Positions 1,543-63,741 of a stretch of DNA of 64,000 nucleotides are shown here, piece by piece (position 1 is the first letter of the stretch; the number at the start of each line of letters is the position of its first letter). A program made the translations under genes and the position numbers. The notes under the pieces were generated by a model, which made no database searches, had not been told where the DNA came from, and saw only the letters and a list, made by a program, of their open reading frames with translations. Source of the DNA: Candidatus Woykebacteria bacterium (GTDB lineage: Bacteria > Patescibacteriota > Microgenomatia > Woykebacterales > RBG-16-39-9b); the NCBI GenBank assembly GCA_040876345.1, contig JBBDPM010000006.1, positions 182,431 to 246,430 on the forward strand. The letters run 5' to 3'.

Positions 1543-2991
1543 CTAGCGACTATCAATTAATTTTTTCAGTTTTGGTCCTTCCTTTGTATCGACCACTTCG
1601 TAGCCGGCTTTTTCGATTTGCCCGCGAATCTGATCTGCCTTTTCAAAATCGCCGGCCTTTCTCACTCCCTCTCTCTCCTCCATCAACCTAGTAACTCCAC
1701 TGGGCACTTTCGACGCCTCTTTAGCTACTTTTTCCAAACCAAGCCCCAAAACAGCATCAAATTTATATAGACTTTCCAATTTTGCACTAGCAGTATTATC
1801 ACTTTTAACAAGTTCCCAAACTACTTCTAAAGCTTTAGGCATATCCATATCGTTATTTATAGCTTCAAGAAAACGGTCCTCGTACTGAGCGCCGCCAACT
1901 TTCGATTCCGATTCCAGCGCGTAACCCGTCACCTCGCGATAAAGATTGTTCAGAGCGTTTTCGGCTGATTCCAGACTAGCCCTAGTAAAATTCAGACGAG
2001 AGCGGTAGTGGGCTGTTAAGCAAAGATAACGGAAGGACAAGGGGTTAAAGTCTTTTTGAGACAAGGTCTCTACTGTATAGACATTTCCTTCCCTTCGCGC
2101 CATTTTTTTGCCCTCCACTAGGAGAAAACCGCCGTGGAGCCAAAAATTGACGAATTTTTTGCCAGTTGCTGATTCACTCTGAGCAATTTCATCTTCATGA
2201 TGGGGGAAAATATTATCTTCCCCACCGGTGTGAATATCGATGGTACGAGCCCTCTCACTAATGAGTCGATCATCTTCAAAAGCTTCACCCAAAAGCTTCA
2301 AGGACATTGCTGAGCATTCAATATGCCAGCCGGGAAAACCCTCTCCCCAAGGGCTAGCCCATTTCATAGTGCGACCAGCCTCGGCCTTTTTCCAAAGGGC
2401 AAAATCAGCTGAATCCTTTTTATCGGTTTCGGATGATACTCGCACGGCTTCAAGAAGCTTAGCCATCTTCTCAACTGTATTACCCGACAGCCGACCATAA
2501 TTAGTAAATTTTTTAACATCGAAGTATATATTACCTTCGGTTTCGTAGGCAAAACCTTTTTCCAAAAGAGCTTTGGTAATCTCAACCATCTCCTTTATAT
2601 ATTCAGTGGCCTTAGGAAAAGTGTCGGCCGGTAAAATATTCAACCTTTTTTCATCATCAAAAAACTGCTTGGTATATCCTTCAGCGATTTCCTGAGGGGT
2701 TTTACCTTGTTTGAGGGCTTCGGCGATCACCGGGTCAATCTGAGTTTGACTGGCCCCGTCAGTACGCATATGGCCAACATCAGTAATATTTTTGATATGG
2801 CGCACTTTATAGCCATTGTAGATAAGGACTCTTTTGAGAATATCGGCAGACAAGTAAGTACGCAGATTTCCAATGTGAATGTCCCGATAAACTGTGGGCC
2901 CACAAGAATAAATTCGAACTTCTGATTTACCAACCGACACAAATTTCTCTTTTTTACGAGTGAGAGTGTTGGTTAGATTAACCTCAACCAT
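1543..2991 (-). CDS. cysS: Cysteinyl-tRNA synthetase
   Basis: [17 protein letters not shown] (HIGH motif), KMARREGN (KMSKS variant), Cys-tRNA synthetase-like layout. Start moved to internal ATG ([17 protein letters not shown]), which matches the canonical CysRS N-terminus; the upstream 24 codons are unlikely. Confidence 0.9.
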
Positions 2992-3076
2992 GAAACTATT
3001 ATACCAACATAAATCACTTTGTGATAATATTTGCTTGACGAGCAAGGAAAGAGCAAGGATCAACAGGAGGAGACCG

Positions 3077-3340
3077 ATGACAAATCAAAACTCACGAGCA
3101 CCGCGTTTCGCGGTCTGGAGTGTCTTCGTGCTATTACCTATGGTCATGGCTCTAGGAGTCCTAGCAATCATGCGGGACGGAACGTTCGGAGACCTACCAG
3201 TCTATGCCTACCCCATCGTCGGGTCAGTACTAGCGGTGGTGGTAGTGGCGATAGCGGCCTTCATGTTCAGGGTCTTCCTGGGAGACTTAGCCCCAGGAGC
3301 GAACAGTAGAACCAAGACGTGCAACGGATCCGCCAGCTAA
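3077..3340 (+). CDS. Small 2-TM membrane protein (hypothetical), on GC-rich island
   Basis: AGGAGG 6 nt upstream of ATG at 3077; two hydrophobic helices (WSVFVLLPMVMALGVLAI / IVGSVLAVVVVAIAAFMF). The ORF-track start at 2960 would overlap cysS. Confidence 0.45.
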   Translation: MTNQNSRAPRFAVWSVFVLLPMVMALGVLAIMRDGTFGDLPVYAYPIVGSVLAVVVVAIAAFMFRVFLGDLAPGANSRTKTCNGSAS

Positions 3341-3364
3341 CGCTGGTTAGGAAGGAGTCGGTCG

Positions 3365-4132
3365 ATGGATTCGCCAATACGACAGGTGGCTGAATTGCTG
3401 AGAGCATCCAGTAGCATCTTGTTCATCACCGGTGCTGGACTTTCGGCAGACTCGGGGCTCCCAACCTACCGAGGAATCGGTGGGTTATACGAGAAGAAAG
3501 TAACCGACGAGAAGATCCCGATCTACGAAGCCCTGTCAGGTAGGATGTTCCGCGAGGATCCAAGCGTGCTCTGGAGATACCTCGCCCAGGTGGAACAACC
3601 AAAGCGCAGTGCCAAACCGAATCGCGGACACGAGGTAATCGCTCAATTCGAGAGTCGAAAAGAGCGGGTGTGGGTCTTGACACAAAACGTCGACGGTTTT
3701 CACACAGCCGCTGGATCAAGAAACGTGATTGAGATCCACGGTAACATACACAACCTGATGTGCACGTCACCATTATGCGCCTACTCTGCACAGGTACAAG
3801 ACTACGCAGCGCTCCTCGAATTACCACCGAAATGTCCAGAGTGCAGAGGAGTCATAAGGCCAGATGTGGTGTTGTTCGGGGAAGAATTACCCGAACGTCA
3901 AGCCGCGGTGATGGAACGGGAGCTGGAGCAGGGCTTCGAAGTCATCGTCTCCGTCGGGACTTCGAGCGTGTTTCCCTACATCTTCGAACCAATTCTCGAG
4001 GCGGAGAGACGCGGTATCAAAACCGCCGAGATAAACCCTGCTGAAACTCAAATGTCGCCACTTGTCGACATCTGGATTGCTGAAAGAGCCGCAAAAGCTC
4101 TAGACGCGATCTGGGAGATCATGCGGAGTTAG
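3365..4132 (+). CDS. Sir2-family NAD-dependent protein deacetylase (CobB-like sirtuin)
   Basis: GAGLSADSGLPTYRG (sirtuin NAD motif), TQNVDGFH, catalytic HG (IEIHGNIH), Zn ribbon CTSPLC...CPECRG; GGAGT RBS; GC-rich. Confidence 0.85.
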   Translation: MDSPIRQVAELLRASSSILFITGAGLSADSGLPTYRGIGGLYEKKVTDEKIPIYEALSGRMFREDPSVLWRYLAQVEQPKRSAKPNRGHEVIAQFESRKERVWVLTQNVDGFHTAAGSRNVIEIHGNIHNLMCTSPLCAYSAQVQDYAALLELPPKCPECRGVIRPDVVLFGEELPERQAAVMERELEQGFEVIVSVGTSSVFPYIFEPILEAERRGIKTAEINPAETQMSPLVDIWIAERAAKALDAIWEIMRS

Positions 4133-8273: not shown

Positions 8274-8288
8274 GAAGATAATTATACA

Positions 8289-24512: not shown

Positions 24513-24520
24513 AAATTAAC

Positions 24521-25471: not shown

Positions 25472-25495
25472 ATTTCTCCCTTTCTTGACACAAAT

Positions 25496-26035: not shown

Positions 26036-26160
26036 GACTTTTTAATTATAGCCCACACGGTGGGAGCAGAACGCGGGAGTACTCAAATTTTGAGTTCGGC
26101 GATAAAATTTGATTACGGAGCGTTCTATTTTTTTGATTGTCTCCTGAGAAAGCACCATAA

Positions 26161-26634: not shown

Positions 26635-26638
26635 AATA

Positions 26639-27259
26639 CTAAACCCTCACCGATTTTTTCCCGTGCCGGACATATCTGGCTTCTTTCTTACCTGACATTT
26701 CCTCCCCTAATTTACTTGCCAATGGACTTTCCTGGCCTGCATACTTAGCTCCTTTCTTCTTACGATAGGGATTATCTACTGGAGAAGAAACTTGTTCAAA
26801 AGTGAAAGAACATATTCTCATGCCAGGGTAAAGTGCTACGGGCATTACCCCAATGTTGCCAAGCTCCATTACTGGCTTGCCCACCCAACCCGGATCAAAA
26901 CGAGCAGCGGTTGAGTGAACAATTATTCCAAGACGTCCTAGGCTGCTTCTTCCTTCTAAGCGGCCGAGCAGGTCATCAGAAATCTCCAAATGCTCAACTG
27001 TCGTTGCCAGGCAAAACTCCCCCGGCCGCATAATGAAAGACTCATCCCCTTGCACAACAATGTCTTTCATCACATCTCCAGAAGTAGTACTGCGTGGATC
27101 AATATAAGGATATTTTGAATGGTTAAATATTTTAAAAGTGTTACCCAGGTGAAAATCAATGGAACAGGAGCCAAGTTGAACTTCAAGGTCTGGCGAAGGT
27201 GTAATTTTTATCTTACCCGAATCTATATATTCGCGAATATCTCTATCAGAAAGAATCAT
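26639..27259 (-). CDS. dcd: dCTP deaminase
   Basis: MILSDRDIREYIDSGKIKITP Dcd N-terminus, 206 aa typical size. Confidence 0.8.
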   Translation of the reverse strand: MILSDRDIREYIDSGKIKITPSPDLEVQLGSCSIDFHLGNTFKIFNHSKYPYIDPRSTTSGDVMKDIVVQGDESFIMRPGEFCLATTVEHLEISDDLLGRLEGRSSLGRLGIIVHSTAARFDPGWVGKPVMELGNIGVMPVALYPGMRICSFTFEQVSSPVDNPYRKKKGAKYAGQESPLASKLGEEMSGKKEARYVRHGKKSVRV

Positions 27260-27527
27260 AGGGACGGCGAACCCCGTGAAAGTTTAACTGAAGTGGGGCC
27301 CCTCCTTTTCGCATTCCATAATATCAGCGGAATAAATCAAAAACAAGAGGATCAAAATAGGTCACTCTGTAGGATGTGTGGAGGACCGGGGCGCGCTAGG
27401 ACGGTTGTCCGCAAACAGCGCGTCCCGGTCCTCAAGGCGGGGGAGGGAATGTCTTTCTAGTTGTGCCCCTACCCCCACCAGTACCATGATGTTGGTGTGT
27501 TCCAGGTTGGCGCGGAAGTTTGCTGCT

Positions 27528-27851
27528 TTACTGCTTTGGGGCAGTGTAAATGGCGTGCGGACCATCTAGTCCAGCACCTTCCCTACCAACCACGATGATC
27601 TCCTCGCCCCTTTCGGCTGCTTCTGTGAACCTACTCAATAGACCCTTGCTCCGCCATTCGACTTCTGCTCTAGAGTCTATCAGGTTATAGTGAGTTGCTA
27701 CCCTACCATCTGGAAGAGTCACTCTACTCCACACCCGCGCAGGATGAAGAGGGGCTTGAAAGTAGCGGACCGCGCAGGTTCCTTCTGGCAATTCAACAAT
27801 GAGAACGCCGCTCTTCTCATCGCTAAGTTGCGGTGGTTCGTCTGTGCCCAC
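27528..27851 (-). CDS. Hypothetical protein (GC-rich island), in frame with the upstream ORF across a single TAA
   Basis: GTG start directly after the TAA of 27852..28169 in the same frame; protein-like composition. Confidence 0.25.
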   Translation of the reverse strand: MGTDEPPQLSDEKSGVLIVELPEGTCAVRYFQAPLHPARVWSRVTLPDGRVATHYNLIDSRAEVEWRSKGLLSRFTEAAERGEEIIVVGREGAGLDGPHAIYTAPKQ

Positions 27852-28169
27852 TTACCATCGCCTCCCATATCCATAAACGGCCATCTGCCGCGCTCCAAGA
27901 GCACCACCAACTCGAGCGTGTGTGCTCGCCAAGATCACTCTTGTCCACTCATTTTGTGCCGCCGCGACGCTTCTCGCCATCGCTGCGTTGAAGCTCTCGT
28001 CTCCCTCCTGGTGCACTTCGTTGAAGTGAGTCCACACCCCACTACTGTGAGGAAAGTGGTATGTCGGTGGTGGCGGCCACAGTATACCACCACGATAGCG
28101 GATACGGTCTTTCCTCCCATCCACCGAGGAAACTACAACCCTGCCGCGTCCACGATTCCTGGATGCCAA
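27852..28169 (-). CDS. Hypothetical protein (GC-rich island)
   Basis: 105-aa ORF; possibly the N-terminal part of a disrupted 211-aa gene. Confidence 0.25.
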   Translation of the reverse strand: MASRNRGRGRVVVSSVDGRKDRIRYRGGILWPPPPTYHFPHSSGVWTHFNEVHQEGDESFNAAMARSVAAAQNEWTRVILASTHARVGGALGARQMAVYGYGRRW

Positions 28170-28654
28170 CTACGAACCTCCCTTTCGTTCGCGCTGATCC
28201 CTACCTGGGGTCCTTCCCGATCAAGGCTTTAATAGCCCGATTTGGATCTCTCAAAAAACAAATCGCGCCCTTCAAGCGCTTTATTAAAATTATAACGAAA
28301 AATCCCCAGGCGTTCAACAACTCAAGCTTGGGTTCGGCGAACCGCGGTAAGAGTTTCCATTCTCTTGCCGCGGCTCAGTCCACGCATCATCCCCAACTAA
28401 CGGATGTGCCCTTCCGCCAATTAGGAGACTGGCTGCCGACGAGAAGCTAATCTGACAGCCTCATCAACAGCCCAGTCTCCGATCTTCCTTGGTGCTGCAA
28501 CACACAGAAAGAAGCTCGGATCTTCCTTCCATGGGCTTCATGCGATGGATTTCCCCTCCCCATCTCCGGTCTCTTTGATCCGCCAGAGCTGTTTTTGAAC
28601 CCTCAAAAACAGATCCCGCTTATCAATCTTTGTTTTGTATATTACACCTCTCTG

Positions 28655-28712
28655 TCCAAAAAATCCAAAACCCCGAGGACTTATGCAGGCAATGCCCACG
28701 GCCTCGGGGTTT
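28655..28712 (-). terminator. Rho-independent terminator (minus strand)
   Basis: 11-bp perfect inverted repeat AAACCCCGAGG/CCTCGGGGTTT followed on the minus strand by TTTTGGATTTTTTGG, 27 nt after the stop of the 28739 gene. Confidence 0.5.
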
Positions 28713-28738
28713 GGCAGCTGACTTCTCTCCCACGTTCC

Positions 28739-29152
28739 TCACTCTTTCACGCCGATTGCAACCATCCCACCCGGCAATAGAACGGCGCAGGTCTCGTCCT
28801 TCCTCGTCTTCCGAAGAGCAAACGCCGCCACACTGACCAAGTCGTCGCCATTGGCCATTGTCGGCACCTGTGCGACTAGCAAGCACTTGAAGACGCCTGG
28901 CCCAGGAATCTCGATCGTGTCGCCGATCTCCATTTCCCGATCGTAGCTCGCAAACCGTACCCGTCGGCCGGTTATAGTGATCGAGCTAACACCCGTCAGT
29001 GGCTTGACCACATGAAGGCTTGACCGGTGCAAGCTTGGACTGGTCTCACCAGTTCCTTGCAAAAGCCTAGTTAAGGGGCCCATCTCCACCCTCCTTTCCA
29101 ATGTATTACTACTCTCACCTTGAGCAGTCCAACCTGCCTTCAACAAAAGCAA
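28739..29152 (-). CDS. Hypothetical protein (GC-rich island)
   Basis: ORF with downstream terminator; possible shorter start at MGPLTRLL. Confidence 0.35.
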   Translation of the reverse strand: MLLLKAGWTAQGESSNTLERRVEMGPLTRLLQGTGETSPSLHRSSLHVVKPLTGVSSITITGRRVRFASYDREMEIGDTIEIPGPGVFKCLLVAQVPTMANGDDLVSVAAFALRKTRKDETCAVLLPGGMVAIGVKE

Positions 29153-29236
29153 GTTGCACTAATCAAGTAAGGATCGACGGAGCCACACCTGGTGAAACAC
29201 CATGCGTGGCTCCGCAGAAGTGACCTGGGGTCTGGG

Positions 29237-29599
29237 TTAGCCGGTTGCGGGCATAGGCGCGACAGCGATCCTCGTACCGCGGGCGGTGGTCTCAATAATG
29301 ACGGCCACCACCTTGCGGAGCTGCTCGAAGCGTTCGAGAAGCTGGCGAACGATGTCTGGCTGCGTCGTACAGCTCACCTCGACAACATGCTCGCATCGCA
29401 GCCCGTTGCCCTCGAAGACGATGCCACCACCCACTTCCAGGGCGCCCTTCTTCTCAGGCTCCGCGAAGACGACCGTCAGACCTCCCATAGTGATGGATGC
29501 CCCCGGGCCCTGCCGATTCACTTTCAGTGCCAAACGTTCCCTCCTCCATGAGTTACCGGAGACTAGCGCTGCGGGTCCTTCTACCCCACATCTCTGCAC
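29237..29599 (-). CDS. Hypothetical protein (GC-rich island)
   Basis: Protein-like composition, AT-rich promoter region upstream (29600-29800). Confidence 0.35.
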   Translation of the reverse strand: MQRCGVEGPAALVSGNSWRRERLALKVNRQGPGASITMGGLTVVFAEPEKKGALEVGGGIVFEGNGLRCEHVVEVSCTTQPDIVRQLLERFEQLRKVVAVIIETTARGTRIAVAPMPATG

Positions 29600-29815
29600 T
29601 CCGAAGGCTTTGACTAGCCCAAGCTACCTTTTAGGTAATCCTAAAAAACAGTTTGCACAAGTCAAACATTCTGTATTTTACACTAATTTGTAAAGTAATA
29701 TGCAAAAACCTAAAATTCCCCCCAATCTTTAAACAAACTCAGCCCAAATAAGCAAGAAGGGCAGGGGAATATTTCATCTCTCTGCCCTTCCGGGAATCCT
29801 TTCCGTAGAGTGTGG

Positions 29816-29974
29816 CTACCTTGCCTTGTCAGCGCCTTCCATCAACCCTTCCACTTTGCTTATTGCATCCATGGCTGGGTCTAGGAAGACAGGGAGCGCG
29901 AAAACGGCGATGATGACTGCTAATGCTAGCAGCAATCCAACCGTCAACAGTCCCCCTGAGGAACCACTTCTCAC
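29816..29974 (-). CDS. Small membrane protein (52 aa)
   Basis: GGAGG then 8 nt then GTG; single TM GLLTVGLLLALAVIIAVFALPVF; below ORF-track cutoff. Confidence 0.35.
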   Translation of the reverse strand: MRSGSSGGLLTVGLLLALAVIIAVFALPVFLDPAMDAISKVEGLMEGADKAR

Positions 29975-30116
29975 GGTATTCACCTCCAGAAAAAGTAGTG
30001 TCGAATTTCTTCGACCCTCGACTGAAATCCACCTTCCAGAAGATGGCCTTCAGTTGAGCCCTGGGGGAACACGCATCCGAAGATTTGTGTCCCCCAGGGC
30101 GGCGGCAGGAAGTTGT

Positions 30117-30710
30117 CTACTGGCTGGGGGCGGCGGTCGGCTGGACGGGTTTGTTGAAGCGCCTCCGCAGTGCGGAAAAGAACGCCTTCAACCCAGTCCG
30201 TATTCCATACCTGTACCGGTGGACGACCACACCCGCCCCAAACGCGACGATACTTGCGGCTGCGAGGGCGGTTCTCCAGTGTGGCCAATCGTTGTCGGTT
30301 GGGACCCGAACGGCCCGAACCACAACCGGTTGACCGACCCACTGCCACGGAATCTCGAGCTCCACACCCGGCAGAAGTGGGCAATTCCCGAAGGGAATCC
30401 CCGTCTGCTGGGCAGCCCGAGAGATCGTCTCGACGTTGTTGCCGGTATAGAGCAGCTGATGCCACTCTCCCGGCCTACCAAGCGCCGTGGCGATCCTCGA
30501 GCATGTATCGTTGTCACCGACGACCCACGTGCCGCCGGGCGGCAGCATGCCGCCGAGCACCTCGTCCTCCTGGTTCTCCTGCGCACTCGCGCTGTGGGCG
30601 AAAGTGAACAGGATGATGATGAGCGCTACTAACCCCACGATCAGCGCGAGTAGCAGGGCTCCATTCCCTCTCTGGTAACCCGGTTGGCGCATGTAACCTC
30701 CTTGCTGCAT
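30117..30710 (-). CDS. LysM-domain membrane protein
   Basis: N-terminal TM, LysM-like WVVGDNDTCSRIATALGRPGEWHQLLYTGNNVE, C-terminal TM. Confidence 0.45.
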   Translation of the reverse strand: MQQGGYMRQPGYQRGNGALLLALIVGLVALIIILFTFAHSASAQENQEDEVLGGMLPPGGTWVVGDNDTCSRIATALGRPGEWHQLLYTGNNVETISRAAQQTGIPFGNCPLLPGVELEIPWQWVGQPVVVRAVRVPTDNDWPHWRTALAAASIVAFGAGVVVHRYRYGIRTGLKAFFSALRRRFNKPVQPTAAPSQ

Positions 30711-31109
30711 ACTTCCTGCCTGCCGAAACTAATTACCAGATATCCTGATAGCCAGATTCGGCAGACAAACTTAATTTTCAAAGAACGAAAGCTCTTATCT
30801 TACAGCAATGGACATTATCTGCTAAATCACCCTGGTGACTCGGCCTCAAATGCCCACGAAATAGTACCTATTATATCAGAAAATGCTGGAAAAGTCAAAT
30901 ACTATAAGTCGCTACATAACTTCGAGACCAGCGAGCTTCTTGTAGCTCAAGGAGTGATCGCAGAGCGCGAAGCGATCTATTTATCAGGTATTCTCGCGCC
31001 TTGCGCTAGCCAACTTTTGGCTAGATAAGGACTCTTATTGAAGGGCTAGTAGTGGTGGGGTGGCGCGCTTCCTCAGATGCTACGCGCCTGCCCCAAAATG
31101 ACCTCCGCC

Positions 31110-31583
31110 TCACTTCTCCTGAGCTTCTCCCCTGATCGCGATGGCGTAGAGAAGATCGTCGACTTGCCGCTCACTCTCCGGGTCCGGACCAGTCTGCCCT
31201 ACCTCGAGATAGTTCCTCAGCCTCTGCACTCGAGGCGCTAAGTCCGCATCCGTAACACCCTTTCCCAGAGTAACCGCAGTGCTCAGGTATCGGAGGACGA
31301 GGAACACTCGCTCCCTATCGAGAGCATCGTAGTAATGGTAAACCCCATCTTCCCGATCCGCCTCGATCATCAGCATCGTGCGATCGAAGACACCAAGCGC
31401 CCAGTTCGCCGTCTTTTCATCAAACTGCAACTGGATCAAGTGACCAACGTTGATTGCTTCGCTTTCTAGGCGGAGCTCCTCCCTGAGTTGGATGTTTTCC
31501 TGCCGCGTGTCATGCCAGGCAACCCCGAAGATAATTGCGCTGGCAGTTGTGATTGCCGCCAACGCTGATAGGAACAGGCTCAT
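31110..31583 (-). CDS. Hypothetical membrane-anchored protein (GC-rich island)
   Basis: N-terminal TM MSLFLSALAAITTASAIIFGVAW, 157 aa. Confidence 0.4.
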   Translation of the reverse strand: MSLFLSALAAITTASAIIFGVAWHDTRQENIQLREELRLESEAINVGHLIQLQFDEKTANWALGVFDRTMLMIEADREDGVYHYYDALDRERVFLVLRYLSTAVTLGKGVTDADLAPRVQRLRNYLEVGQTGPDPESERQVDDLLYAIAIRGEAQEK

Positions 31584-31960
31584 CGTTGTTTCCCTCCTTC
31601 CGTGAACCAGTCCCCGCCGTCCAGGACGTTTGAAAGAATATTAACGCTTATGCACTTAATGGTCAAGAAATTCATTAATAGAAAAATGGTGAAAAAAGCT
31701 GTAGGCGGCGCGTGCTCCGTGAGGAAACTCGCGCCGCACCAAACGTTGCTGGCCAGGTTTTCAGAAGGTAGTTCCGTCAGACGCACCTTCGGGGACCGGA
31801 GTCGGCGTTTCGTACGCGGCGCAGGGATCGAATATAGGTCAAGAGATTGGTTTGGCTACGTTTGGGGCACTTCTTCTTTAGTCTGAGGCTTTGTCCGAGC
31901 TCATCCACTTACTTAAATACTCTTATTTACTTTTATTCTTCGCTGATTTATACTTTTGTC

Positions 31961-32197
31961 ATGAATTTCCGCGTTTTTATTACTCAAGATGAAAGTGGTG
32001 TTTATGTAGCCTCTGTTCCAAGCCTTCCGGGCTGCCACAGTCAAGGTAAGAGCGTTGAAGAAGCCACTAAAAACATTAGGGAGGCTATTACTGGGTGGAT
32101 CGACGTGGCTAAGGAATTTGGTGATCCAATACCTTCTGACGATACGGAAGTAATTGAACTAAACGTAAAAGTTGCCGAACCTGCAACATCTCAATGA
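31961..32197 (+). CDS. hicB: Type II antitoxin HicB (UPF0150)
   Basis: MNFRVFITQDESGVYVASVPSLPGCHSQGKSVEEATKNIREAI is the classic HicB/UPF0150 pattern; start set to the internal ATG. Confidence 0.8.
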   Translation: MNFRVFITQDESGVYVASVPSLPGCHSQGKSVEEATKNIREAITGWIDVAKEFGDPIPSDDTEVIELNVKVAEPATSQ

Positions 32198-35552: not shown

Positions 35553-37079
35553 CTATTCGTACTCTATCGTCGCTGGGGGTTTTTGGGTGACGTCGTAAAC
35601 TACTCGATTTACTCCTTTGACTTCATTGACTATCCGACTCGAGATTTTCTCAAGCACATCATGGGGCATTTTGAACCAATCCGCAGTCATTCCATCCACG
35701 CTCGTCACTGCTCGAAGAGTGATAATATATTGATAAGTTCGCAAGTCCCCCATCACCCCGACAGTTTTAATTGGCAAAAGCGCAGCAAAAGCCTGCCAAA
35801 TTTTATCGTAAAGCTTGGTTTTCTTTAGCTCTTCTATATAAACTGCGTCTGCTTCCCGAAGAATTTCGAGCCGCTCGGGCGTGACCTCCCCAACAATTCG
35901 AACCGCAAGGCCAGGCCCCGGAAATGGATGGCGAAACAAAGCTTCGGTGGGAAGCCGAAGCTGCATCCCAAGGGAACGTACCTCATCCTTATAGAAGTTT
36001 CGGAGTGGCTCGACAACCTGAAATTTGAGCTTTTCCGGCAAAGTTAGATTGTGATGGCTTTTTATTTTGGTGCTCTGCTTGCTAGTCGAAGCAGACTCCA
36101 CTCTGTCTGGGTAGATTGTCCCTTGAGCAAAAAAGCGAATTTTTTCCTTTTTTTCTAGCGAGGCTGCTACATCCTCAAAAACTTTAATGAAAGTGTGGCC
36201 AATTATTTTTCTTTTTTCCTCTGGATCCTCAATTTTTTTTAATTTTCTTAAGAAGATATTTGAAGCGTCTACTTTAATAAAATTTGCAAACCTTTGTTTT
36301 CTGAATAAAAATTCCACCTCCTCCGCCTCATTTTTTCGAAGTAGCCCAGTGTCGATGAAAACAGCAAAAAGATTATCTCCAATTGCTTTATAAAGAAGGT
36401 TGGAAGCTACCAGGGAGTCCACTCCACCAGAAACACCAATAAGAACTTTTTCCTCGCCTAGATTTTCCTTAAGATTCTTGATTAGCTCTTTGGTTATATC
36501 TTTGATTTGCCAGCTTTTTTTAGCCTTGCAAATCCCAAAAACGAAGTTTTTCAAAATCGCCTGTCCATACTCGGTGTGGGCAACTTCAGGGTGAAACTGC
36601 ACTGCGTATATTTTTTGTTCAATATTGGAGAAAGCGCTGATAGGGCAATAGTTACTCCTTGCTATTATTTCAAAATCTGCTGGGAGTTTTTTGACCAAAT
36701 CCCCGTGAGATAGCCAAACTGTTTGGCTATCTGAAAGCCCTTTAAAAAGCAGGCTTTTAGTGTTTAATTTAATCCTTTCTTTCCCATATTCCCTACTCCT
36801 TCCTTCTTCAACCTCTCCCCCTTTTTCTTTTGCTAGAAGTTGTAGTCCGTAACAAATGCCGAGGATTGGAATATTAAGATCAAATACCTTTGGATTAAGC
36901 TTGGGGGAACCTTTTCCATAAACAGAGGAGGGCCCGCCGGAAAGAATAACACCCTCAAGAGTATTAAGCCCGCCAAGGTCCACTTTTGGGCCAAAAATTT
37001 CGGCCGCTACCCCAAGCTCTCGAATTCTCCGAGAAATAAGATGAGTATATTGGCTACCATAATCCAAAACTGCAATCAT
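35553..37079 (-). CDS. guaA: GMP synthase (glutamine-hydrolysing)
   Basis: GATase domain with catalytic Cys (GICYGLQ), ATP-PPase SGGVDS motif. Confidence 0.9.
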   Translation of the reverse strand: MIAVLDYGSQYTHLISRRIRELGVAAEIFGPKVDLGGLNTLEGVILSGGPSSVYGKGSPKLNPKVFDLNIPILGICYGLQLLAKEKGGEVEEGRSREYGKERIKLNTKSLLFKGLSDSQTVWLSHGDLVKKLPADFEIIARSNYCPISAFSNIEQKIYAVQFHPEVAHTEYGQAILKNFVFGICKAKKSWQIKDITKELIKNLKENLGEEKVLIGVSGGVDSLVASNLLYKAIGDNLFAVFIDTGLLRKNEAEEVEFLFRKQRFANFIKVDASNIFLRKLKKIEDPEEKRKIIGHTFIKVFEDVAASLEKKEKIRFFAQGTIYPDRVESASTSKQSTKIKSHHNLTLPEKLKFQVVEPLRNFYKDEVRSLGMQLRLPTEALFRHPFPGPGLAVRIVGEVTPERLEILREADAVYIEELKKTKLYDKIWQAFAALLPIKTVGVMGDLRTYQYIITLRAVTSVDGMTADWFKMPHDVLEKISSRIVNEVKGVNRVVYDVTQKPPATIEYE

Positions 37080-37141
37080 CCAAAGAATTATAGCAGACTG
37101 CGCTTAGGCTGGGAATGAGAGAAAAGAGGGCTTCCTAAAAC

Positions 37142-50631: not shown

Positions 50632-51015
50632 TTAAGAGCCAATTACAAATTTTTCAAAATCTTCATCAAAAGCAAAGGATTGGTCAATATTATAATACCT
50701 CATTACAGCAAAGGAGGTACAATACGAAACATTTTTAGATTTTATTCCTTTAAAAATTTTCCAAGCCGCTCCTTCCAGATCTTCATCAATACTTATCAAC
50801 TTAATTCTAGGATCAAACTCTTCTCCGAAAGCTATCAATCTATCTTTACTTACCTTTTGAGAAATTACTGTGTAAGTTTCCGCAAGAATATAATTGGTAG
50901 TTATGAGGCTGTCTTCACGCTTTTCAAGCTGAAAGGCAACTTCGTGGGCTTTTTTATGATTTGGATCAGCTGGACTCCTGAGGGCAACGAAAGCACTAGT
51001 GTCAACAAAAATCAT
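50632..51015 (-). CDS. vapC: PIN-domain toxin VapC
   Basis: MIFVDTSAFVAL N-terminal acidic motif; 127 aa; conserved PIN acidic positions. Confidence 0.8.
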   Translation of the reverse strand: MIFVDTSAFVALRSPADPNHKKAHEVAFQLEKREDSLITTNYILAETYTVISQKVSKDRLIAFGEEFDPRIKLISIDEDLEGAAWKIFKGIKSKNVSYCTSFAVMRYYNIDQSFAFDEDFEKFVIGS

Positions 51016-59234: not shown

Positions 59235-59835
59235 CACAACGATCCCGCTGTTCACGATACCACCGGGGTTTTAAGAAGGTTTAATCTAACCAGAAAGAAA
59301 AGACAGGCTAAGTACTACATCCCACTCCCAAGACCACTCTCAAATTGTCCAGGAGCCTTAGTGGAGGTGGACACCATCCACTTCGTTAGACCAAACACTA
59401 GTCGGTTTTATATCTACACTTTAATTGATGTTTATTCCCGGTTAGCTTATGCGGAGTACCCTCCTAAGCTTTCTCAGAAAAACTCTCTAAAATTTGTTAA
59501 GGCGGCTCAGAAGAAGTTTGTCTTTAAGTTCTTTACAGTCCAAACCGACAATGGACCAGAGTTTAAGGACCACTTTAACATTGAGCTTAAGAGAAACAAG
59601 ATTACTTTAAGACATTCCCGGGTCAGGACCCCTAACGATAATGCCCATCTGGAGAGATTTAACCGCACTTTACAAGAAGAGTGTTTCCAAGGAAGACGAC
59701 CTAATGAAGAAGGGCTAACGGGCAACTCAGGTCCTATTTAACTTATTACAACAATGTTAGACTACACCTATTAATTAACCTTCAGACACCTACTCAATTT
59801 GTTTCTAAGGTCCTGACGTAATTACGTATAATTAG
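59235..59835 (+). mobile_element. Degraded IS transposase (rve/DDE integrase core) remnant with frameshifts
   Basis: DDE core: ALVEVDTIHF (D), VQTDNGPEF (D), NAHLERFNRTLQEE (E). N-terminal HTH region missing. C-terminal YYNNVRLHLLINLQTPTQFVSKVL lies in a different frame. Confidence 0.6.
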
Positions 59836-59874
59836 TTCTTGTCGTAGCTTTGTTTGAACGCTATAATAGCTCGA

Positions 59875-61227
59875 ATGATTCTAAAGATAACCAAAAACAC
59901 AGATTCTATCTGGAAACAAAAATTTAAAAACGTCTCTCAGGTGGATTCTGAAACTCGGAAAATTGTCGCCGATATGAAGGAGACTCTGGAGTTTACCGGC
60001 GGTGTTGGCCTAGCTGCTCCCCAAGTGGATATTCCCTTCAATATCTTTATCGCCAACTTTGGAAAGCTAAACGAAGTTTTTATTAATCCAAAAATTGTTA
60101 GCCAATCCAAGGAAACCGGCGAAGGCGAGGAAGGATGTCTCTCTGTTCCAGGCTTTCGAGGGCTTCTAAACCGATCGAGCGAACTAGTAATTAACTATAT
60201 CGACCTCAAGGGACGCAAAAAAACCGCTTCTCTTTCTGGCTTTTATGCAAGGATCATCCAACATGAGTACGATCACTTAAAATCCACTTTTTACATCGAC
60301 AAAATAGTCGATAAAAAGGAAAAAGTGGTTCATTTTAAGCCAACTAAACTTGTTTTCTTTGGCACTCCGAAGTTTGGAGCGACAATTTTAAAAAGCATTA
60401 TCGGGCAACAAGTAGTCGGCGAATATAAAGTTCTTCTAGTGGTAACCCAACCTGATCAACCCTTCGGTCGAGGCCAAGAGGTTAAAAAGTCTGCCGTTAA
60501 ACAGCTTGCCGAGCAATTTGGCATTAGAGTAATTGAGCCGACAAAACTTGATCAAAAAGAAGTTGTAAAAACCCTTCAAAAGCTAAACCCCGACGTGTTC
60601 GTAGTTGCCTCCTATGGCCAAATACTACCAAAAGACGTCTTAAATATACCAAAATACGGCTCTTTAAACTTGCATGCAAGCCTTTTACCAAAGTATCGAG
60701 GTGCCTCCCCTATTCAGGGGGCTATATTGAACAAGGAAAAATACACAGGGGTAACAATTATGCTTATGAATGAGAGGCTGGATGAAGGCGAAATTTTGGC
60801 TGAAGCAAAAGTTAAAATTAGTCCCAAAGACACGTTTATCTCCCTTCATGACAAGCTTGCAAAAGTTGGTTCAGAGCTCCTTCACCAAGTAATATATCTT
60901 TGGATAAACAAGCGTATCAAACCCAGGCGCCAAACTGCCTCTAAATCCAAAGCAACCTATACACCCCGTCTGACCCGTGATTCAGGTTTCATCGACGCTC
61001 TTAGGCCTCCAAAAAATCTTGAGACTATGATCCGCGCTTACCATCCTTGGCCAGGGGTTTGGACCCGCCTGGCAGCGCCTGATGGCGCAGCCTCTGGCGG
61101 GCAGGCAAAAAATCAAGGAAAAGTATTAAAACTGCTGCCGAATCGAATGGTGCAACTTGAGGGAAAGTCCCCAGTTTCTTTGAAAGACTTCAAACAAGGT
61201 CATAAAGATTTTGATTTGAGTTGGTGA
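59875..61227 (+). CDS. Bifunctional peptide deformylase / methionyl-tRNA formyltransferase fusion protein
   Basis: PDF motifs GVGLAAPQV, EGCLSVPG, HEYDHL in residues about 1-160. Then Fmt domain LVFFGTPKFGATIL...HASLLPKYRGASPIQ plus Fmt C-terminal domain. Single continuous ORF. Confidence 0.8.
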   Translation: MILKITKNTDSIWKQKFKNVSQVDSETRKIVADMKETLEFTGGVGLAAPQVDIPFNIFIANFGKLNEVFINPKIVSQSKETGEGEEGCLSVPGFRGLLNRSSELVINYIDLKGRKKTASLSGFYARIIQHEYDHLKSTFYIDKIVDKKEKVVHFKPTKLVFFGTPKFGATILKSIIGQQVVGEYKVLLVVTQPDQPFGRGQEVKKSAVKQLAEQFGIRVIEPTKLDQKEVVKTLQKLNPDVFVVASYGQILPKDVLNIPKYGSLNLHASLLPKYRGASPIQGAILNKEKYTGVTIMLMNERLDEGEILAEAKVKISPKDTFISLHDKLAKVGSELLHQVIYLWINKRIKPRRQTASKSKATYTPRLTRDSGFIDALRPPKNLETMIRAYHPWPGVWTRLAAPDGAASGGQAKNQGKVLKLLPNRMVQLEGKSPVSLKDFKQGHKDFDLSW

Positions 61228-61234
61228 GGGGCTG

Positions 61235-61546
61235 TTATGTCACTTCGGCTGGTTCTTTTTCTTTATTATCAACCGCTTTTTGGATAGCTTCAGATAACAT
61301 CGAGGATTCCTTTTTTACTTCTCGTTCAACTACGGGTACTACCTCAACTTTCCTGGCCGCATTAGGAAAATCTTCCTTCATTATCCGAAGGCATTTAGTA
61401 CAAAGGCGCAATCCCAAGCTTCGGCCACCAATAAAGAGGGTAGTTTTGTGAAGATTTGGCTTACTTCTTTTTTTTGTCCTTCGGTGGGAATGCGATACAT
61501 TCATCCCTACCTGAGACCCTTTTCCACAACGATCACATACGTACAT
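61235..61546 (-). CDS. rpmB: 50S ribosomal protein L28 with C-terminal extension
   Basis: CDRCGKGSQVGMNVSHSHRRTKKRSKPNLHKTT matches the L28 core. Confidence 0.75.
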   Translation of the reverse strand: MYVCDRCGKGSQVGMNVSHSHRRTKKRSKPNLHKTTLFIGGRSLGLRLCTKCLRIMKEDFPNAARKVEVVPVVEREVKKESSMLSEAIQKAVDNKEKEPAEVT

Positions 61547-62321: not shown

Positions 62322-62584
62322 GCTAAAGTATTAAGGCTCGCTTGCTACTTGATCTCTTGTGTACTCGGGAATATAATATAACTGATCCCGTAGGTACGGG
62401 AGCACCCTACTTTGAAGGGTAAGCGGGGTGAAGATTTTTCTTCCGCTAATTTCCTTCTACTTTGGGTTGACTCGGAGTTTCGGCTCACCTTGGTGAGCTG
62501 AACAGGGTTCCCACCTAAGCGTTTTGGGAGGAATAACTTCACACTTCCTTCATTGTAGGGCTGGACTTAATCTTTAAAGAGAAA

Positions 62585-62616
62585 CTCACCCTGAGCGGCT
62601 CGTAGGGTGAGTTTTT
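62585..62616 (+). terminator. Rho-independent terminator
   Basis: CTCACCCT-GAGCGGCTCGT-AGGGTGAG followed by TTTTTC. Confidence 0.55.
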
Positions 62617-62893
62617 CGTCTAATTGAACCCCTAAGGACTTTTTGATATAATCTCAACGTTTTGATATAGTTTGCTGGGAGATAACGCTCTGGGTTCTGC
62701 GCTGTTGCTAAGCACTTTCCGTAACCAAATTCATCCGCCAGATGGCGGAAGTAATTTGGGTACTCCCGAGTGCAGCGCTCCATCGGCAGCGGAGCTAATG
62801 CTCAGTGGTAGGACACTAAAGCATCCTGCGAATATTTTATGTTCTAAAAGCAACGATTTTTAGTCACTCTAGTGGCCTAAGGCATTAAGCCAG

Positions 62894-62968
62894 GCCGTCC
62901 TAGCTCAACGGTAGAGCAGCTGTTTTGTAAACAGCAGGTTGTCGGTTCGAATCCGACGGACGGCTCCA
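62894..62968 (+). tRNA. tRNA-Thr (anticodon TGT)
   Basis: Cloverleaf: acceptor GCCGTCC/GGACGGC, D-arm GCTCAACGGTAGAGC, anticodon stem GCTGT/ACAGC with loop TTTGTAA, T-arm GTCGGTTCGAATCCGAC, CCA encoded. Confidence 0.85.
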
Positions 62969-63077
62969 GAAGATTGAGTAGACTCAAAATTCAAAGAATT
63001 TTGAAGAGGAGGGCTAACGAAGCGCTAAAATTTGCTTCTTCAGAAGCAAATGATAAGAGTGCAGTCCAGCCCGACGC

Positions 63078-63164
63078 GCTGGGGTAGCGAAGTGGTTAAA
63101 CGTACCTGACTGTAAATCAGGCGGCCTTGTGCCTTCGGGGGTTCGAATCCCTCCCCCAGCACCA
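63078..63164 (+). tRNA. tRNA-Tyr (anticodon GTA), long variable arm
   Basis: Acceptor GCTGGGG/CCCCAGC, anticodon stem CCTGA/TCAGG with loop CTGTAAA, long variable arm, T-loop TTCGAAT, CCA encoded. Confidence 0.85.
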
Positions 63165-63165
63165 C

Positions 63166-63219
63166 GCCCAGATAGTTCAGTGGTAGCACGCTAAAGCGTG
63201 TGCGCCCGATCACTCGGGC
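63166..63219 (+). other. tRNA-like fragment (acceptor plus D-arm consensus) followed by two short hairpins; probable decayed tRNA at the glyT-equivalent position
   Basis: GCCCAGATAGTTCAGTGGTAGCAC resembles a tRNA 5' half; no anticodon or T-arm can be folded; hairpins GCACGC-TAAA-GCGTGT and GCCCGA-TCAC-TCGGGC. Confidence 0.35.
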
Positions 63220-63244
63220 TAGGAATGCAGATCTAATGATATAG

Positions 63245-63319
63245 GCCGACGTGGCTCAGTGGCAGAGCACTTTCTTGGTAAGAAAGGGGTCGTGGGTTCG
63301 ACTCCCACCGTCGGCTCCA
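63245..63319 (+). tRNA. tRNA-Thr (anticodon GGT)
   Basis: Acceptor GCCGACG/CGTCGGC, D-arm GCTCAGTGGCAGAGC, anticodon stem CTTTC/GAAAG with loop TTGGTAA, T-arm GTGGGTTCGACTCCCAC, CCA encoded. Confidence 0.85.
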
Positions 63320-63388
63320 TATAATTGATATATAAATAAATATTTATTAGTTTAGCACTAATAACTGTCGATTGACAAAGGAGGTTTT

Positions 63389-63553
63389 ATGGCTAAAAAA
63401 GGTAAAATAATTATAATCAATCTAGAATGTACTGTTTGCAAAAACCAAAATTACGTAACTGAAAAAAGTAAGGTCAACGATCCTGAGCGACTGTTAACTA
63501 GGAAGTTTTGTAAACATTGCCGTAAGGTAACTGAGCACAAAGAAGTAAAGTAG
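63389..63553 (+). CDS. rpmG: 50S ribosomal protein L33
   Basis: GGAGG RBS; [54 protein letters not shown] matches L33 including the Cys4 zinc ribbon; 54 aa (below ORF-track cutoff). Confidence 0.85.
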
Positions 63554-63667
63554 CACTCTAGGTGACCAAATCCATTCGCTAACTCTCAAGTTATTTGGGT
63601 AATCTCGAGTGCTGCCCCAGGCATCTTAATTCCTGGCTAAGACCTTAATTTGAATTTAATCCATCTT

Positions 63668-63741
63668 AGGGGTGTCGGTTAATGGTAAACCACGGGTCTC
63701 CAAAACCCGGACTGGGAGTTCGATTCTCCCCACCCCTGCCA
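63668..63741 (+). tRNA. tRNA-Trp (anticodon CCA)
   Basis: Acceptor AGGGGTG/CACCCCT, D-arm GGTTAATGGTAAACC, anticodon stem CGGGT/ACCCG with loop CTCCAAA, T-arm GGGAGTTCGATTCTCCC, CCA encoded. Confidence 0.85.

What the first reader, a model, noticed from the sequence alone, without database searches (positions are those of the whole stretch)
59875..61227. In-frame fusion of peptide deformylase and Met-tRNA formyltransferase
def and fmt are normally adjacent but separate genes. Here a single 451-aa ORF carries all three PDF metal-binding motifs (GVGLAAPQV, EGCLSVPG, HEYDHL). After a short Lys-rich linker (DKKEKVVHFKPTK) it continues into a complete Fmt (N-terminal Rossmann with HASLLPKYRG, then the C-terminal tRNA-binding domain). 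One polypeptide would physically couple the enzymes that add and remove the N-formyl group.
Basis: seen in the sequence. Interest (0 to 1): 0.55.

Follow-up and report, generated by a model that had tools for sequence, protein, structure and literature searches.

The report
Conserved deformylase–formyltransferase fusion gene
One real, uninterrupted gene in this Candidatus Woykebacteria genome encodes both the enzyme that adds the formyl group to the starting methionine and the enzyme that removes it; the fusion is genuine and conserved, but the same kind of fusion has been published and recurs in several other bacterial groups.

Summary
Window 59875-61227 (+) is one open frame of 450 codons plus stop. 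It carries a full peptide deformylase (PDF) domain at aa 1-~146 and a Met-tRNA formyltransferase (Fmt) at aa 158-450. Both score above the curated NCBIfam cut-offs.

It is not a sequencing artefact. The identical protein is recorded on six contigs, including an NCBI MAG and a Logan assembly. 117 of the 120 best database hits (35-70% identity) share the fused architecture. The one "standalone" Woykebacteria Fmt is an annotation truncation of a fused ORF.

All PDF metal and catalytic residues and the Fmt Asn/His/Asp triad are invariant in 32 fused homologues.

- The Fmt C-terminal tRNA-binding domain is reduced, not complete.
- The "linker" replaces most of the ribosome-anchoring C-terminal helix of E. 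coli-type PDF, and AlphaFold2 predicts it to be structured.

The kind is known. A def-fmt fusion in Exiguobacterium complemented E. coli Δdef-fmt (PMC12690207). Fusions also occur in MAGs labelled Bacillota, Chloroflexota, Actinomycetia and Ignavibacteriales. The Woykebacteria fusion arose independently of the Exiguobacterium one.

Whether a second def or fmt exists elsewhere in the genome could not be tested. Interest is modest.

The parts
59839..59867 (+). Promoter-like site TTGTCG-17 nt-TATAAT. The -10 box ends 7 nt before the ATG and there is no Shine-Dalgarno motif, so the mRNA may be leaderless (inferred).
   Evidence: Consensus scan, 10/12 match. A TATAAT-like box 7-8 nt upstream of the start occurs in 4 of 5 Woykebacteria loci. 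TATAAT-N6-8-ATG occurs 5 times in the window against 1.19 expected.
59875..61227 (+). def-fmt fused ORF, 450 aa plus TGA stop.
   Evidence: It is identical to P0001, 'MAG: methionyl-tRNA formyltransferase [Candidatus Woykebacteria bacterium]', found on GCA_040881185.1 JBBEDR010000006.1 and on Logan SRR27977662.
59875..60309 (+). Peptide deformylase domain (aa 1-145).
60001..60027 (+). PDF motif 1, GVGLAAPQV (aa 43-51).
   Evidence: Read from the sequence. G45, A47 and Q50 are invariant in 32 fused homologues.
60130..60153 (+). PDF motif 2, EGCLSVPG (aa 86-93). Cys88 is the metal ligand and corresponds to E. coli Cys90.
   Evidence: Read from the sequence. E86, G87, C88, L89 and S90 are invariant.
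60262..60279 (+). PDF motif 3, HEYDHL (aa 130-135). His130 and His134 are metal ligands and Glu131 is catalytic (E. coli H132, H136, E133).
   Evidence: Read from the sequence. H130, E131, D133, H134 and L135 are invariant.
60310..60345 (+). Junction DKKEKVVHFKPT (aa 146-157). It sits where E. coli PDF has its C-terminal ribosome-anchoring helix. It is short and predicted to be ordered. No canonical start codon is conserved at the domain boundary.
   Evidence: The alignment offset to E. coli PDF is 2 (query 7-159 against 1bs4_A 7-161). The ribosome-contact residues are taken from PMC12690207. AF2 gives pLDDT 90-94, a helix at 147-150 and a strand at 151-153.
60346..60894 (+). Fmt N-terminal catalytic (formyltransferase) domain, aa 158-340.
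60667..60702 (+). NLHASLLPKYRG (aa 265-276). Asn265 and His267 are catalytic (E. coli N108, H110), followed by the SLLP folate-site motif.
   Evidence: Read from the sequence. N265, H267, S269, L271, P272 and R275 are invariant.
60781..60783 (+). Asp303, the catalytic Asp (E. coli D146, by my own count of the remembered E. coli sequence).
   Evidence: D303 and G305 are invariant in 32 fused homologues.
60952..61224 (+). Reduced Fmt C-terminal (tRNA-binding) domain, about aa 360-450.
   Evidence: PF02911 scores only 22.1 bits and covers profile positions 2-35 of 100. The Woykebacteria clade has a roughly 45-column gap relative to the full-length fused proteins P0115, P0116 and P0119. AF2 predicts only 3 strands and 1 helix after aa 395.
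61072..61116 (+). Lineage-specific low-complexity insert (about aa 400-414, AAPDGAASGGQAKNQ) in a length-variable loop of the C-terminal domain.
   Evidence: It is absent from the 433-aa relatives, and other members have unrelated inserts at the same place. pLDDT is below 50 at aa 406-413. Local GC is 0.50.

Best explanation
This is a genuine bifunctional Def-Fmt protein that is fixed in the Candidatus Woykebacteria lineage (Patescibacteria/CPR).

The C-terminal two thirds is a Met-tRNA(fMet) formyltransferase. It transfers the formyl group of 10-formyl-tetrahydrofolate to the initiator Met-tRNA. The N-terminal third is a metal-dependent peptide deformylase. It removes that formyl group from nascent chains.

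The fusion most likely arose from the ordinary adjacent def-fmt gene pair, through loss of the def stop codon and of the fmt start codon. Its main effect would be obligatory 1:1 co-expression. Fmt can then never be made without the PDF that detoxifies its product. This suits a small genome with little regulation.

Shown here: the continuous ORF, its conservation, the intact catalytic residues of both domains, the two folds in a confident model, and independent origin from the Exiguobacterium fusion.

Inferred: both activities in vivo (by analogy with the Exiguobacterium fusion, which rescued E. coli Δdef-fmt), the stop-loss origin, and the selective advantage.
For: - Uninterrupted ORF.
- Pfam and NCBIfam hits above the curated cut-offs for both enzymes.
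- The identical protein is on six contigs, including an NCBI MAG and a Logan assembly.
- 117 of the 120 best hits are fused, at 35-70% identity.
- The apparent exception P0099 is a truncated annotation of a fused ORF.
- Synteny Wzy_C / small ORF / def-fmt / L28 / M50 is conserved.
- Invariant in 32 fused homologues: PDF G45, A47, Q50, E86-S90, H130, E131, D133, H134; Fmt N265, H267, S269, L271, P272, R275, D303.
- No canonical start codon is conserved at the domain boundary.
- Published precedent: the Exiguobacterium def-fmt fusion rescues E. coli Δdef-fmt.
- In 35 of 70 sampled loci from other bacteria, def and fmt lie in the same frame and are separated by a single stop codon. A fusion is therefore one mutation away. 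The sample is biased.
- No other def- or fmt-like sequence lies in the 64-kb window.
Against: - No activity data exist for this protein or for any Woykebacteria member.
- The PDF half lacks most of the C-terminal helix that anchors E. coli PDF on the ribosome. Co-translational deformylation must therefore work differently or less efficiently.
- The Fmt C-terminal tRNA-binding domain is reduced.
- A second def or fmt elsewhere in the genome cannot be excluded. All four Exiguobacterium reference genomes carry a second PDF.
- The rigid domain packing suggested by pTM 0.88 is a prediction only.
- The extended motif III of PMC12690207 (QHExDHLxG) ends in Ser, not Gly, in the window protein and in most, though not all, of its clade.
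Confidence: 0.85

Rival explanations
1. Assembly or sequencing artefact: two ordinary adjacent genes, def and fmt, joined by a missed stop codon or a frameshift error.
For: In many bacteria def and fmt are adjacent, in frame, and separated by one stop codon. A single base error could therefore mimic a fusion. The window comes from a metagenome-assembled genome.
Against: - The identical ORF is on six contigs, including an NCBI MAG and a Logan assembly.
- More than 100 clusters at 35-70% identity have the same junction.
- Junction codons differ among relatives but stay in frame.
- The ancestral fmt start codon is gone; the boundary codon is ACT, GTT or ATA.
- There is no compositional break at the junction.
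Confidence: 0.01
2. The fusion is real, but one half is redundant or catalytically dead. A standalone PDF (as in Exiguobacterium) or a standalone Fmt elsewhere in the genome does the work, and the fused domain serves as a scaffold or regulator.
For: - All Exiguobacterium genomes with the fusion also carry a second PDF.
- The PDF half lacks the ribosome-anchoring helix.
- The Fmt C-terminal domain is reduced.
- Only 64 kb of the genome could be checked.
Against: - Every metal ligand and catalytic residue of both halves is invariant across 32 homologues, down to 38% identity.
- Both halves pass the NCBIfam equivalog cut-offs.
- Standalone short Fmt proteins of 272-300 aa align to the very end of the query. 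The reduced C-domain is therefore not specific to the fusion and does not by itself signal decay.
Confidence: 0.08
3. One ORF but two proteins. Internal translation initiation or proteolysis at the Lys-rich junction would release separate PDF and Fmt.
For: In the window, an AAGGA motif lies 4 nt upstream of an in-frame GTG (Val151) inside the junction.
Against: - The GTG and its SD-like motif are not conserved. Relatives have ATC ATA or CTT TAT at that place.
- SD motifs are rare in this genome anyway.
- The junction is short, its length is conserved, and it is predicted to be ordered (pLDDT 90-94).
Confidence: 0.05

Closest known systems
def-fmt fusion gene of Exiguobacterium (Bacillales), reported in PMC12690207 (Mol Biol Evol 2025). 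The E. alkaliphilum fusion rescued E. coli Δdef-fmt.
   Same: One ORF with PDF at the N-terminus and Fmt at the C-terminus. The junction is at the same place: shortly after PDF motif 3 it runs directly into Fmt strand β1, so the PDF C-terminal helix is lost in both (P0319...HLDGVLFTDKLVEQEKPRVVFMGTP). The two proteins are 36% identical over 403 aa, through the junction. Databases name both simply 'methionyl-tRNA formyltransferase'.
   Different: The origins are independent. The Exiguobacterium Fmt half is 55-58% identical (374 bits) to standalone 316-aa Fmt proteins, but only 39% (182 bits) to the window protein. Exiguobacterium keeps a full-length Fmt C-terminal domain, about 80 aa after the P-F-P motif, while the Woykebacteria clade has a reduced one. 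Exiguobacterium has a second PDF; whether this genome does is unknown. The lineages differ: Patescibacteria against Bacillota.
Canonical def-fmt operon (E. coli and most bacteria): two adjacent, co-transcribed genes.
   Same: Same two enzymes, same gene order (def then fmt), same catalytic residues. 68 of 70 sampled loci with adjacent def and fmt in other bacteria show the two-gene state.
   Different: Here the def stop and the fmt start are gone, giving one polypeptide. The second half of the PDF C-terminal helix, which carries E. coli K160 and R163 contacting 23S rRNA, is replaced by Fmt strand β1. Of the uL22-contacting positions, L149 becomes K147, K150 becomes K148, R153 becomes V151 and K157 becomes K155.
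Unpublished def-fmt fusions in MAGs labelled Bacillota, Thermaerobacter, Clostridiales, Chloroflexota, Actinomycetia and Ignavibacteriales (database entries only).
   Same: Same PF01327+PF00551(+PF02911) architecture. About 75 fused clusters appeared in one profile search. 43 of the 150 best 50%-identity representatives are fused. L008 and L014 are fused ORFs in GTDB genomes.
   Different: Many of them have longer, acidic linkers (P0115, P0116, P0119, L008) and a full-length C-terminal domain. In an NJ tree of the Fmt domain they are scattered among standalone Fmt proteins, whereas the Woykebacteria-type fusions form one clade (no branch support was computed).
ArnA (bifunctional UDP-Ara4N formyltransferase / UDP-GlcA decarboxylase).
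   Different: Not a member. NCBIfam ArnA scores 142 bits against a cut-off of 777. The partner domain and the substrate are unrelated.

Membership tests
Peptide deformylase (Pfam PF01327; NCBIfam TIGR00079) | Profile score above the curated cut-off. | tested here: met
   PF01327 scores 145.3 bits against 22.8. TIGR00079 scores 128.1 against 103.95, and subfamily NF001159 scores 135.3 against 125.
Peptide deformylase (Pfam PF01327; NCBIfam TIGR00079) | Three catalytic motifs: GΦGΦAAxQ, EGCxS (Cys ligand), and QHExDH (two His ligands and the catalytic Glu). | tested here: met
   G43-VGLAAP-Q50, E86-GCLS-90 and Q129-HEYDH-134 are present and invariant in 32 fused homologues. The extended form QHExDHLxG of PMC12690207 ends in Ser137 here rather than Gly.
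Peptide deformylase (Pfam PF01327; NCBIfam TIGR00079) | PDF fold. | tested here: met
Peptide deformylase, E. coli-type (1B) ribosome-binding mode | A long C-terminal α-helix that inserts between uL22 and uL32 (E. coli L149, K150, R153, K157, K160, R163). | tested here: not met
   At an alignment offset of 2, the equivalent positions are K147, K148, V151, K155, K158 and F161. AF2 shows only a one-turn helix at 147-150, then strands, and residues 157-163 form Fmt β1. The contact residues are taken from PMC12690207.
Peptide deformylase | Deformylase activity on fMet-peptides; sensitivity to actinonin. | not testable with these tools
   This needs biochemistry or complementation.
Methionyl-tRNA formyltransferase (NCBIfam TIGR00460; Pfam PF00551+PF02911) | Equivalog profile score above the cut-off, and better than the paralogous formyltransferases. 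| tested here: met
   TIGR00460 scores 245.6 bits against 201.5. ArnA (142 against 777), PurN (70.6 against 150) and PurU (52 against 286) all fall below their cut-offs.
Methionyl-tRNA formyltransferase (NCBIfam TIGR00460; Pfam PF00551+PF02911) | Catalytic Asn/His/Asp (E. coli N108, H110, D146) and the SLLPxxRG motif. | tested here: met
   N265, H267, D303 and S269-LLPKYRG-276 are present and invariant in 32 homologues. The E. coli numbering comes from my own knowledge of the sequence.
Methionyl-tRNA formyltransferase (NCBIfam TIGR00460; Pfam PF00551+PF02911) | Fmt-specific insertion loop 1 in the Rossmann domain (E. coli TQPDRPAGRGKK, which contacts the tRNA acceptor end). | tested here: met
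   The window has TQPDQPFGRGQE at aa 190-201. The E. coli loop sequence is recalled from memory. Two distant fused relatives (P0096, P0098) lack this loop.
Methionyl-tRNA formyltransferase (NCBIfam TIGR00460; Pfam PF00551+PF02911) | Complete C-terminal β-barrel (OB-like) tRNA-binding domain. | tested here: inconclusive
Methionyl-tRNA formyltransferase | Formylation of initiator Met-tRNA; recognition of the initiator acceptor-stem features. | not testable with these tools
   No initiator tRNA gene lies in the window (tRNA-Thr, Tyr, Thr and Trp only). Activity needs an experiment.
Single-gene def-fmt fusion (as described for Exiguobacterium) | One uninterrupted ORF with PDF N-terminal to Fmt, conserved in related genomes. 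| tested here: met
Single-gene def-fmt fusion (as described for Exiguobacterium) | Common descent with the Exiguobacterium fusion. | tested here: not met
   The Exiguobacterium Fmt half is closest to standalone Fmt proteins (55-58% identity, 374 bits), against 39% and 182 bits to the window protein. The window Fmt half is 48-49% identical to standalone short Fmt proteins. The two lie in separate clades of the NJ tree.
Single-gene def-fmt fusion (as described for Exiguobacterium) | Rescue of E. coli Δdef-fmt; presence of a second standalone PDF in the genome. | not testable with these tools
   There is no other def or fmt in the 64-kb window or among the genes called within about 10 kb on either side. 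The rest of the 586-kb contig and of the genome could not be read.

The most novel reading that the evidence does not exclude
In Woykebacteria the fused protein may be the only PDF and the only Fmt in the cell, and the fusion may be more than co-expression. The PDF half has lost the canonical ribosome-anchoring helix, and the Fmt half has a truncated tRNA-binding domain. The two halves, which AF2 predicts to pack rigidly (pTM 0.88), could then depend on each other. The basic Fmt surface might serve as the new ribosome/rRNA anchor for PDF. Alternatively, the PDF domain might substitute for the missing part of the Fmt tRNA-binding domain. Either would be a different docking mode of the nascent-chain processing machinery on the divergent CPR ribosome.
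Probability: 0.15. Interest if true: 0.55.

Novelty: new member of a known kind. Interest (0 to 1): 0.3.

Why it matters
Formylation and deformylation of the initiator methionine are hallmarks of bacterial translation, and PDF is an antibiotic target.

The 2025 survey of 5,042 reference genomes listed def-fmt fusion as an oddity of four Exiguobacterium genomes. This window shows that the same solution is fixed in a whole CPR lineage. The searches around it show that it has arisen repeatedly: at least 43 clusters at 50% identity, in MAGs carrying labels of several phyla. All of these are annotated only as "methionyl-tRNA formyltransferase", so genome surveys will undercount PDF in these organisms.

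The fusions also provide natural PDF variants that lack the C-terminal ribosome anchor. Because the Exiguobacterium fusion works in E. coli, this raises a testable question about how necessary that anchor is. None of this changes the basic understanding of the pathway.

Tried and rejected
- **Artefact hypothesis.** Rejected; see rival 1.
- **A Woykebacteria relative with separate genes.** The only candidate, P0099 (313 aa, RBG_16_43_9), turned out to be a truncated gene call. The DNA of L001 has one fused open frame, 2458..3942, with the MIL start at 2527.
- **Genome-contig scan for the taxonomic spread of the fusion.** The 80 loci kept are an arbitrary sample biased towards in-frame pairs, and none is a Woykebacteria genome. 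It was useful only to show that most bacteria have two genes and that 2 of the 80 loci are fused.
- **The listing of cluster members on ten distant fused proteins.** It gave no organism names.
- **Foldseek against afdb50.** That library was not available. PDB searches by sequence and by fold found no solved chain containing both domains.
- **Literature searches for a CPR or Woykebacteria def-fmt fusion.** Nothing was found beyond the Exiguobacterium report. Its supplements hold no sequence, so the Exiguobacterium protein was recovered by a profile search instead.
- **A second def or fmt copy.** Only the window could be searched.
- **A conserved internal start at the junction.** None was found.
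- **Compositional break at the junction.** None was found.
- **Rfam scan of the whole window.** It found only four tRNAs.
Full report
**Observation**

Window 59875-61227 (+) is one uninterrupted reading frame. It runs from ATG at 59875 through 450 sense codons to TGA at 61225-61227. The mechanical ORF starts seven codons earlier at TTG 59854, but homologues begin at the equivalent of the ATG (MIL...).
- GVGLAAPQV, aa 43-51
- EGCLSVPG, aa 86-93
- HEYDHL, aa 130-135
- DKKEKVVHFKPT, aa 146-157
- HASLLPKYRG, within aa 265-276

Pfam finds Pep_deformylase at aa 3-149 (E 1.5e-42), Formyl_trans_N at aa 158-340 (E 1.5e-44) and a marginal Formyl_trans_C at aa 366-399 (22.1 bits against a cut-off of 21.1). 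The NCBIfam equivalogs for both enzymes are passed: fmt TIGR00460 scores 245.6 against 201.5, and pept_deformyl TIGR00079 scores 128.1 against 103.95. ArnA, PurN and PurU are far below their cut-offs. Base composition shows no break at the junction.

**Not an artefact**

The identical protein (P0001, named 'MAG: methionyl-tRNA formyltransferase [Candidatus Woykebacteria bacterium]') is recorded on six contigs. These include a 586-kb contig of GCA_040881185.1 and a 110-kb contig of the Logan assembly of run SRR27977662.

Of the 120 best hits among 5.8 billion proteins, 117 carry both PF01327 and PF00551. Their identity is 35-70% and most are 433-469 aa long. Several are named as Woykebacteria.

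The only named Woykebacteria 'standalone' Fmt is P0099 (313 aa). It is a truncated gene call: the DNA of that locus has one fused open frame, L001 2458..3942, with the conserved MIL start at 2527.

The neighbourhood Wzy_C-type protein / small ORF / def-fmt / ribosomal protein L28 (opposite strand) / M50 peptidase recurs in L001, L082-L086 and the window.

At the junction the codons differ between relatives but stay in frame. The position where a standalone fmt would start is ACT, GTT or ATA, so the ancestral start codon is gone.

**Both halves look competent**

I aligned 32 fused proteins that are down to 38% identical to the window protein. The invariant columns include:
- PDF: G45, A47, Q50; E86, G87, C88, L89, S90; H130, E131, D133, H134
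- Fmt: N265, H267, S269, L271, P272, R275, D303

The alignments to E. coli PDF and Fmt chains give consistent offsets: query 7-159 against 1bs4_A 7-161, and query 158-399 against 1fmt_A 5-240. Using these, and the E. coli numbering I know from the literature, the residues map as follows:
- PDF metal ligands: Cys90, His132, His136
- PDF catalytic residue: Glu133
- Fmt catalytic residues: Asn108, His110, Asp146

**Differences from the textbook enzymes**

1. *PDF C-terminus.* In E. coli the C-terminal helix anchors PDF between uL22 and uL32. The contacts are L149, K150, R153 and K157 to uL22, and K160 and R163 to 23S rRNA (PMC12690207). At the constant offset of 2, the window has K147, K148, V151, K155, K158 and F161. 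The model shows only a one-turn helix (147-150) followed by strands, and residues 157-163 form the first β-strand of Fmt. The 'linker' is therefore the stump of that helix. Its length is conserved within the clade and it is predicted to be ordered (pLDDT 90-94).
2. *Fmt C-terminal domain.* It is reduced. Pfam covers only 34 of 100 profile positions. The Woykebacteria clade has a gap of about 45 columns relative to the full-length fused proteins P0115, P0116 and P0119. The model shows only three strands and one helix after aa 395. Standalone short Fmt proteins of 272-300 aa align to the very end of the query, so the reduction is not specific to the fusion.
3. *Window-specific insert.* The window protein carries a disordered low-complexity insert of about 15-17 aa (AAPDGAASGGQAKNQ). 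It lies in a loop where other members have unrelated inserts.

**How known and how common**

A 2025 survey of PDFs (PMC12690207) reports, as 'an unusual case', that def and fmt are fused in the four Exiguobacterium reference genomes. All four also have a second PDF. The E. alkaliphilum fusion restores growth of E. coli Δdef-fmt. I found no paper describing the fusion in CPR bacteria.

In sequence databases the fusion is frequent:
- 43 of the 150 best representatives of a 50%-identity library are fused.
- A profile of non-CPR fusions retrieved about 75 more fused clusters. Where named, they come from Exiguobacterium, Bacillota, Thermaerobacter, Clostridiales, Chloroflexota, Actinomycetia and Ignavibacteriales. 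All are called just 'methionyl-tRNA formyltransferase'.
- Two of 80 arbitrarily sampled GTDB loci are fused (L008, L014).

The window protein and the Exiguobacterium protein P0319 are 36% identical through the junction, and both lose the PDF C-terminal helix. Their origins are nevertheless independent:
- The Exiguobacterium Fmt half is 55-58% identical to standalone 316-aa Fmt proteins, against 39% to the window protein.
- The window Fmt half is 48-49% identical to standalone short Fmt proteins.
- In an NJ tree of the Fmt domain, the Woykebacteria-type fusions form one clade while other fusions are scattered among standalone Fmt proteins. The tree has no branch support and its deep branches are poorly resolved.

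A simple route to fusion is visible. In 35 of 70 sampled loci with adjacent genes, def and fmt share a frame and are separated by one stop codon. That sample is biased towards in-frame pairs by the way the loci were ranked.

**Mechanism**

Shown: one polypeptide with an intact PDF centre and an intact Fmt centre, conserved across a clade.

Established for the families: Fmt formylates initiator Met-tRNA with 10-formyl-THF, and PDF removes the formyl group from nascent chains. Loss of fmt reduces susceptibility to the PDF inhibitor actinonin, and def and fmt can be deleted together in E. coli, leaving a strong growth defect. From my own knowledge, PDF is essential only while Fmt is active. [quoted passage not shown]

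Inferred: the fusion arose by loss of the def stop and the fmt start. It is kept because it enforces 1:1 co-expression, so that Fmt is never made without PDF. This would be an advantage in a small genome. The window also holds thyA, so the organism uses folates.

How PDF reaches the nascent chain without its usual anchor is open. Proteins around the tunnel exit vary in CPR ribosomes: L29 and L32 are lost in some lineages, and L22, L23 and L32 are enlarged in some.

I put 0.85 on 'genuine bifunctional enzyme with both activities'. I put 0.15 on the more novel reading that the two halves have become structurally interdependent.

**What could not be settled**

I could not determine whether another def or fmt exists elsewhere in the genome. 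None lies in the 64-kb window (tblastn with both halves; best other hit E 0.08), and none is among the genes called within about 10 kb on either side. Activity, ribosome binding and the real transcription start also remain untested.

**Verdict**

The feature is a new, independently evolved and clade-wide member of a kind already described. It has two noteworthy structural reductions. Interest is modest (0.3).

Noticed in passing
window 59839-59877; also 8271-8286 (-) and 37077-37092 (-): A perfect TATAAT box ends 7-8 nt upstream of the ATG of def-fmt, of recR, and of the 35553-37079 gene, with no Shine-Dalgarno motif. This suggests leaderless mRNAs. TATAAT-N6-8-ATG occurs 5 times against 1.19 expected, and 1 of 100 shuffles reached 5. 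SD-like motifs precede only about 10 of 40 genes. Four of five Woykebacteria def-fmt loci show the same arrangement.
   Followed up: partly
window 59237-59741 (+): A truncated integrase-core (rve) fragment, probably an IS remnant, lies directly upstream of def-fmt (Pfam rve E 3.5e-10). It has no N-terminal part and no second copy in the window. GC is 0.50 against about 0.40 around it. It widens the spacer between the small upstream ORF and def-fmt to 913 bp, against about 140-280 bp in L001, L085 and L086.
   Followed up: partly
window ~27400-31800: A GC-rich island (0.50-0.65 against about 0.43) is full of overlapping ORFs on both strands. None has a Pfam match and the region has no Rfam match. 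A HicB-like antitoxin gene lies at its edge (31847-32197). It may be foreign DNA; this is unexplained.
   Followed up: partly
window 24072-27259 (-): Three tandem paralogues with the dCTP-deaminase/dUTPase fold (25496-26035, 26161-26634, 26639-27259) lie next to thymidylate synthase thyA (24521-25471) and a NUDIX hydrolase (24072-24512). Together they form a compact pyrimidine-deoxynucleotide cluster.
   Followed up: no
window 61235-61546 (-): The ribosomal protein L28 gene ends 8 bp after the def-fmt stop, on the opposite strand. The protein is 103 aa, but the Pfam L28 domain covers only aa 3-57, so it has a C-terminal extension of about 45 aa rich in Lys and Glu. The relatives L001 and L086 have a 79-aa L28.
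   Followed up: no
L001 3001-3942 (GCA_001816715.1, MHCS01000033.1): The public annotation calls only the Fmt half (313 aa, P0099). It starts at an ATA codon inside what is a fused 472-aa def-fmt ORF. All fused proteins seen are named only 'methionyl-tRNA formyltransferase', so PDF is invisible in name-based surveys.
   Followed up: yes
window 50632-51015 (-) and the small ORF upstream of it (L082 758-1427): A PIN-domain toxin gene with a small RHH antitoxin gene lies between the large NHL/Big_7 surface protein gene and the PBP2-MreD?-MreC-MreB cell-shape cluster.
   Followed up: no
window 62326-63741: About 560 bp (62326-62890) have no long ORF and no Rfam hit. They are followed by a cluster of tRNA-Thr(TGT), Tyr, Thr(GGT) and Trp genes.
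   Followed up: no
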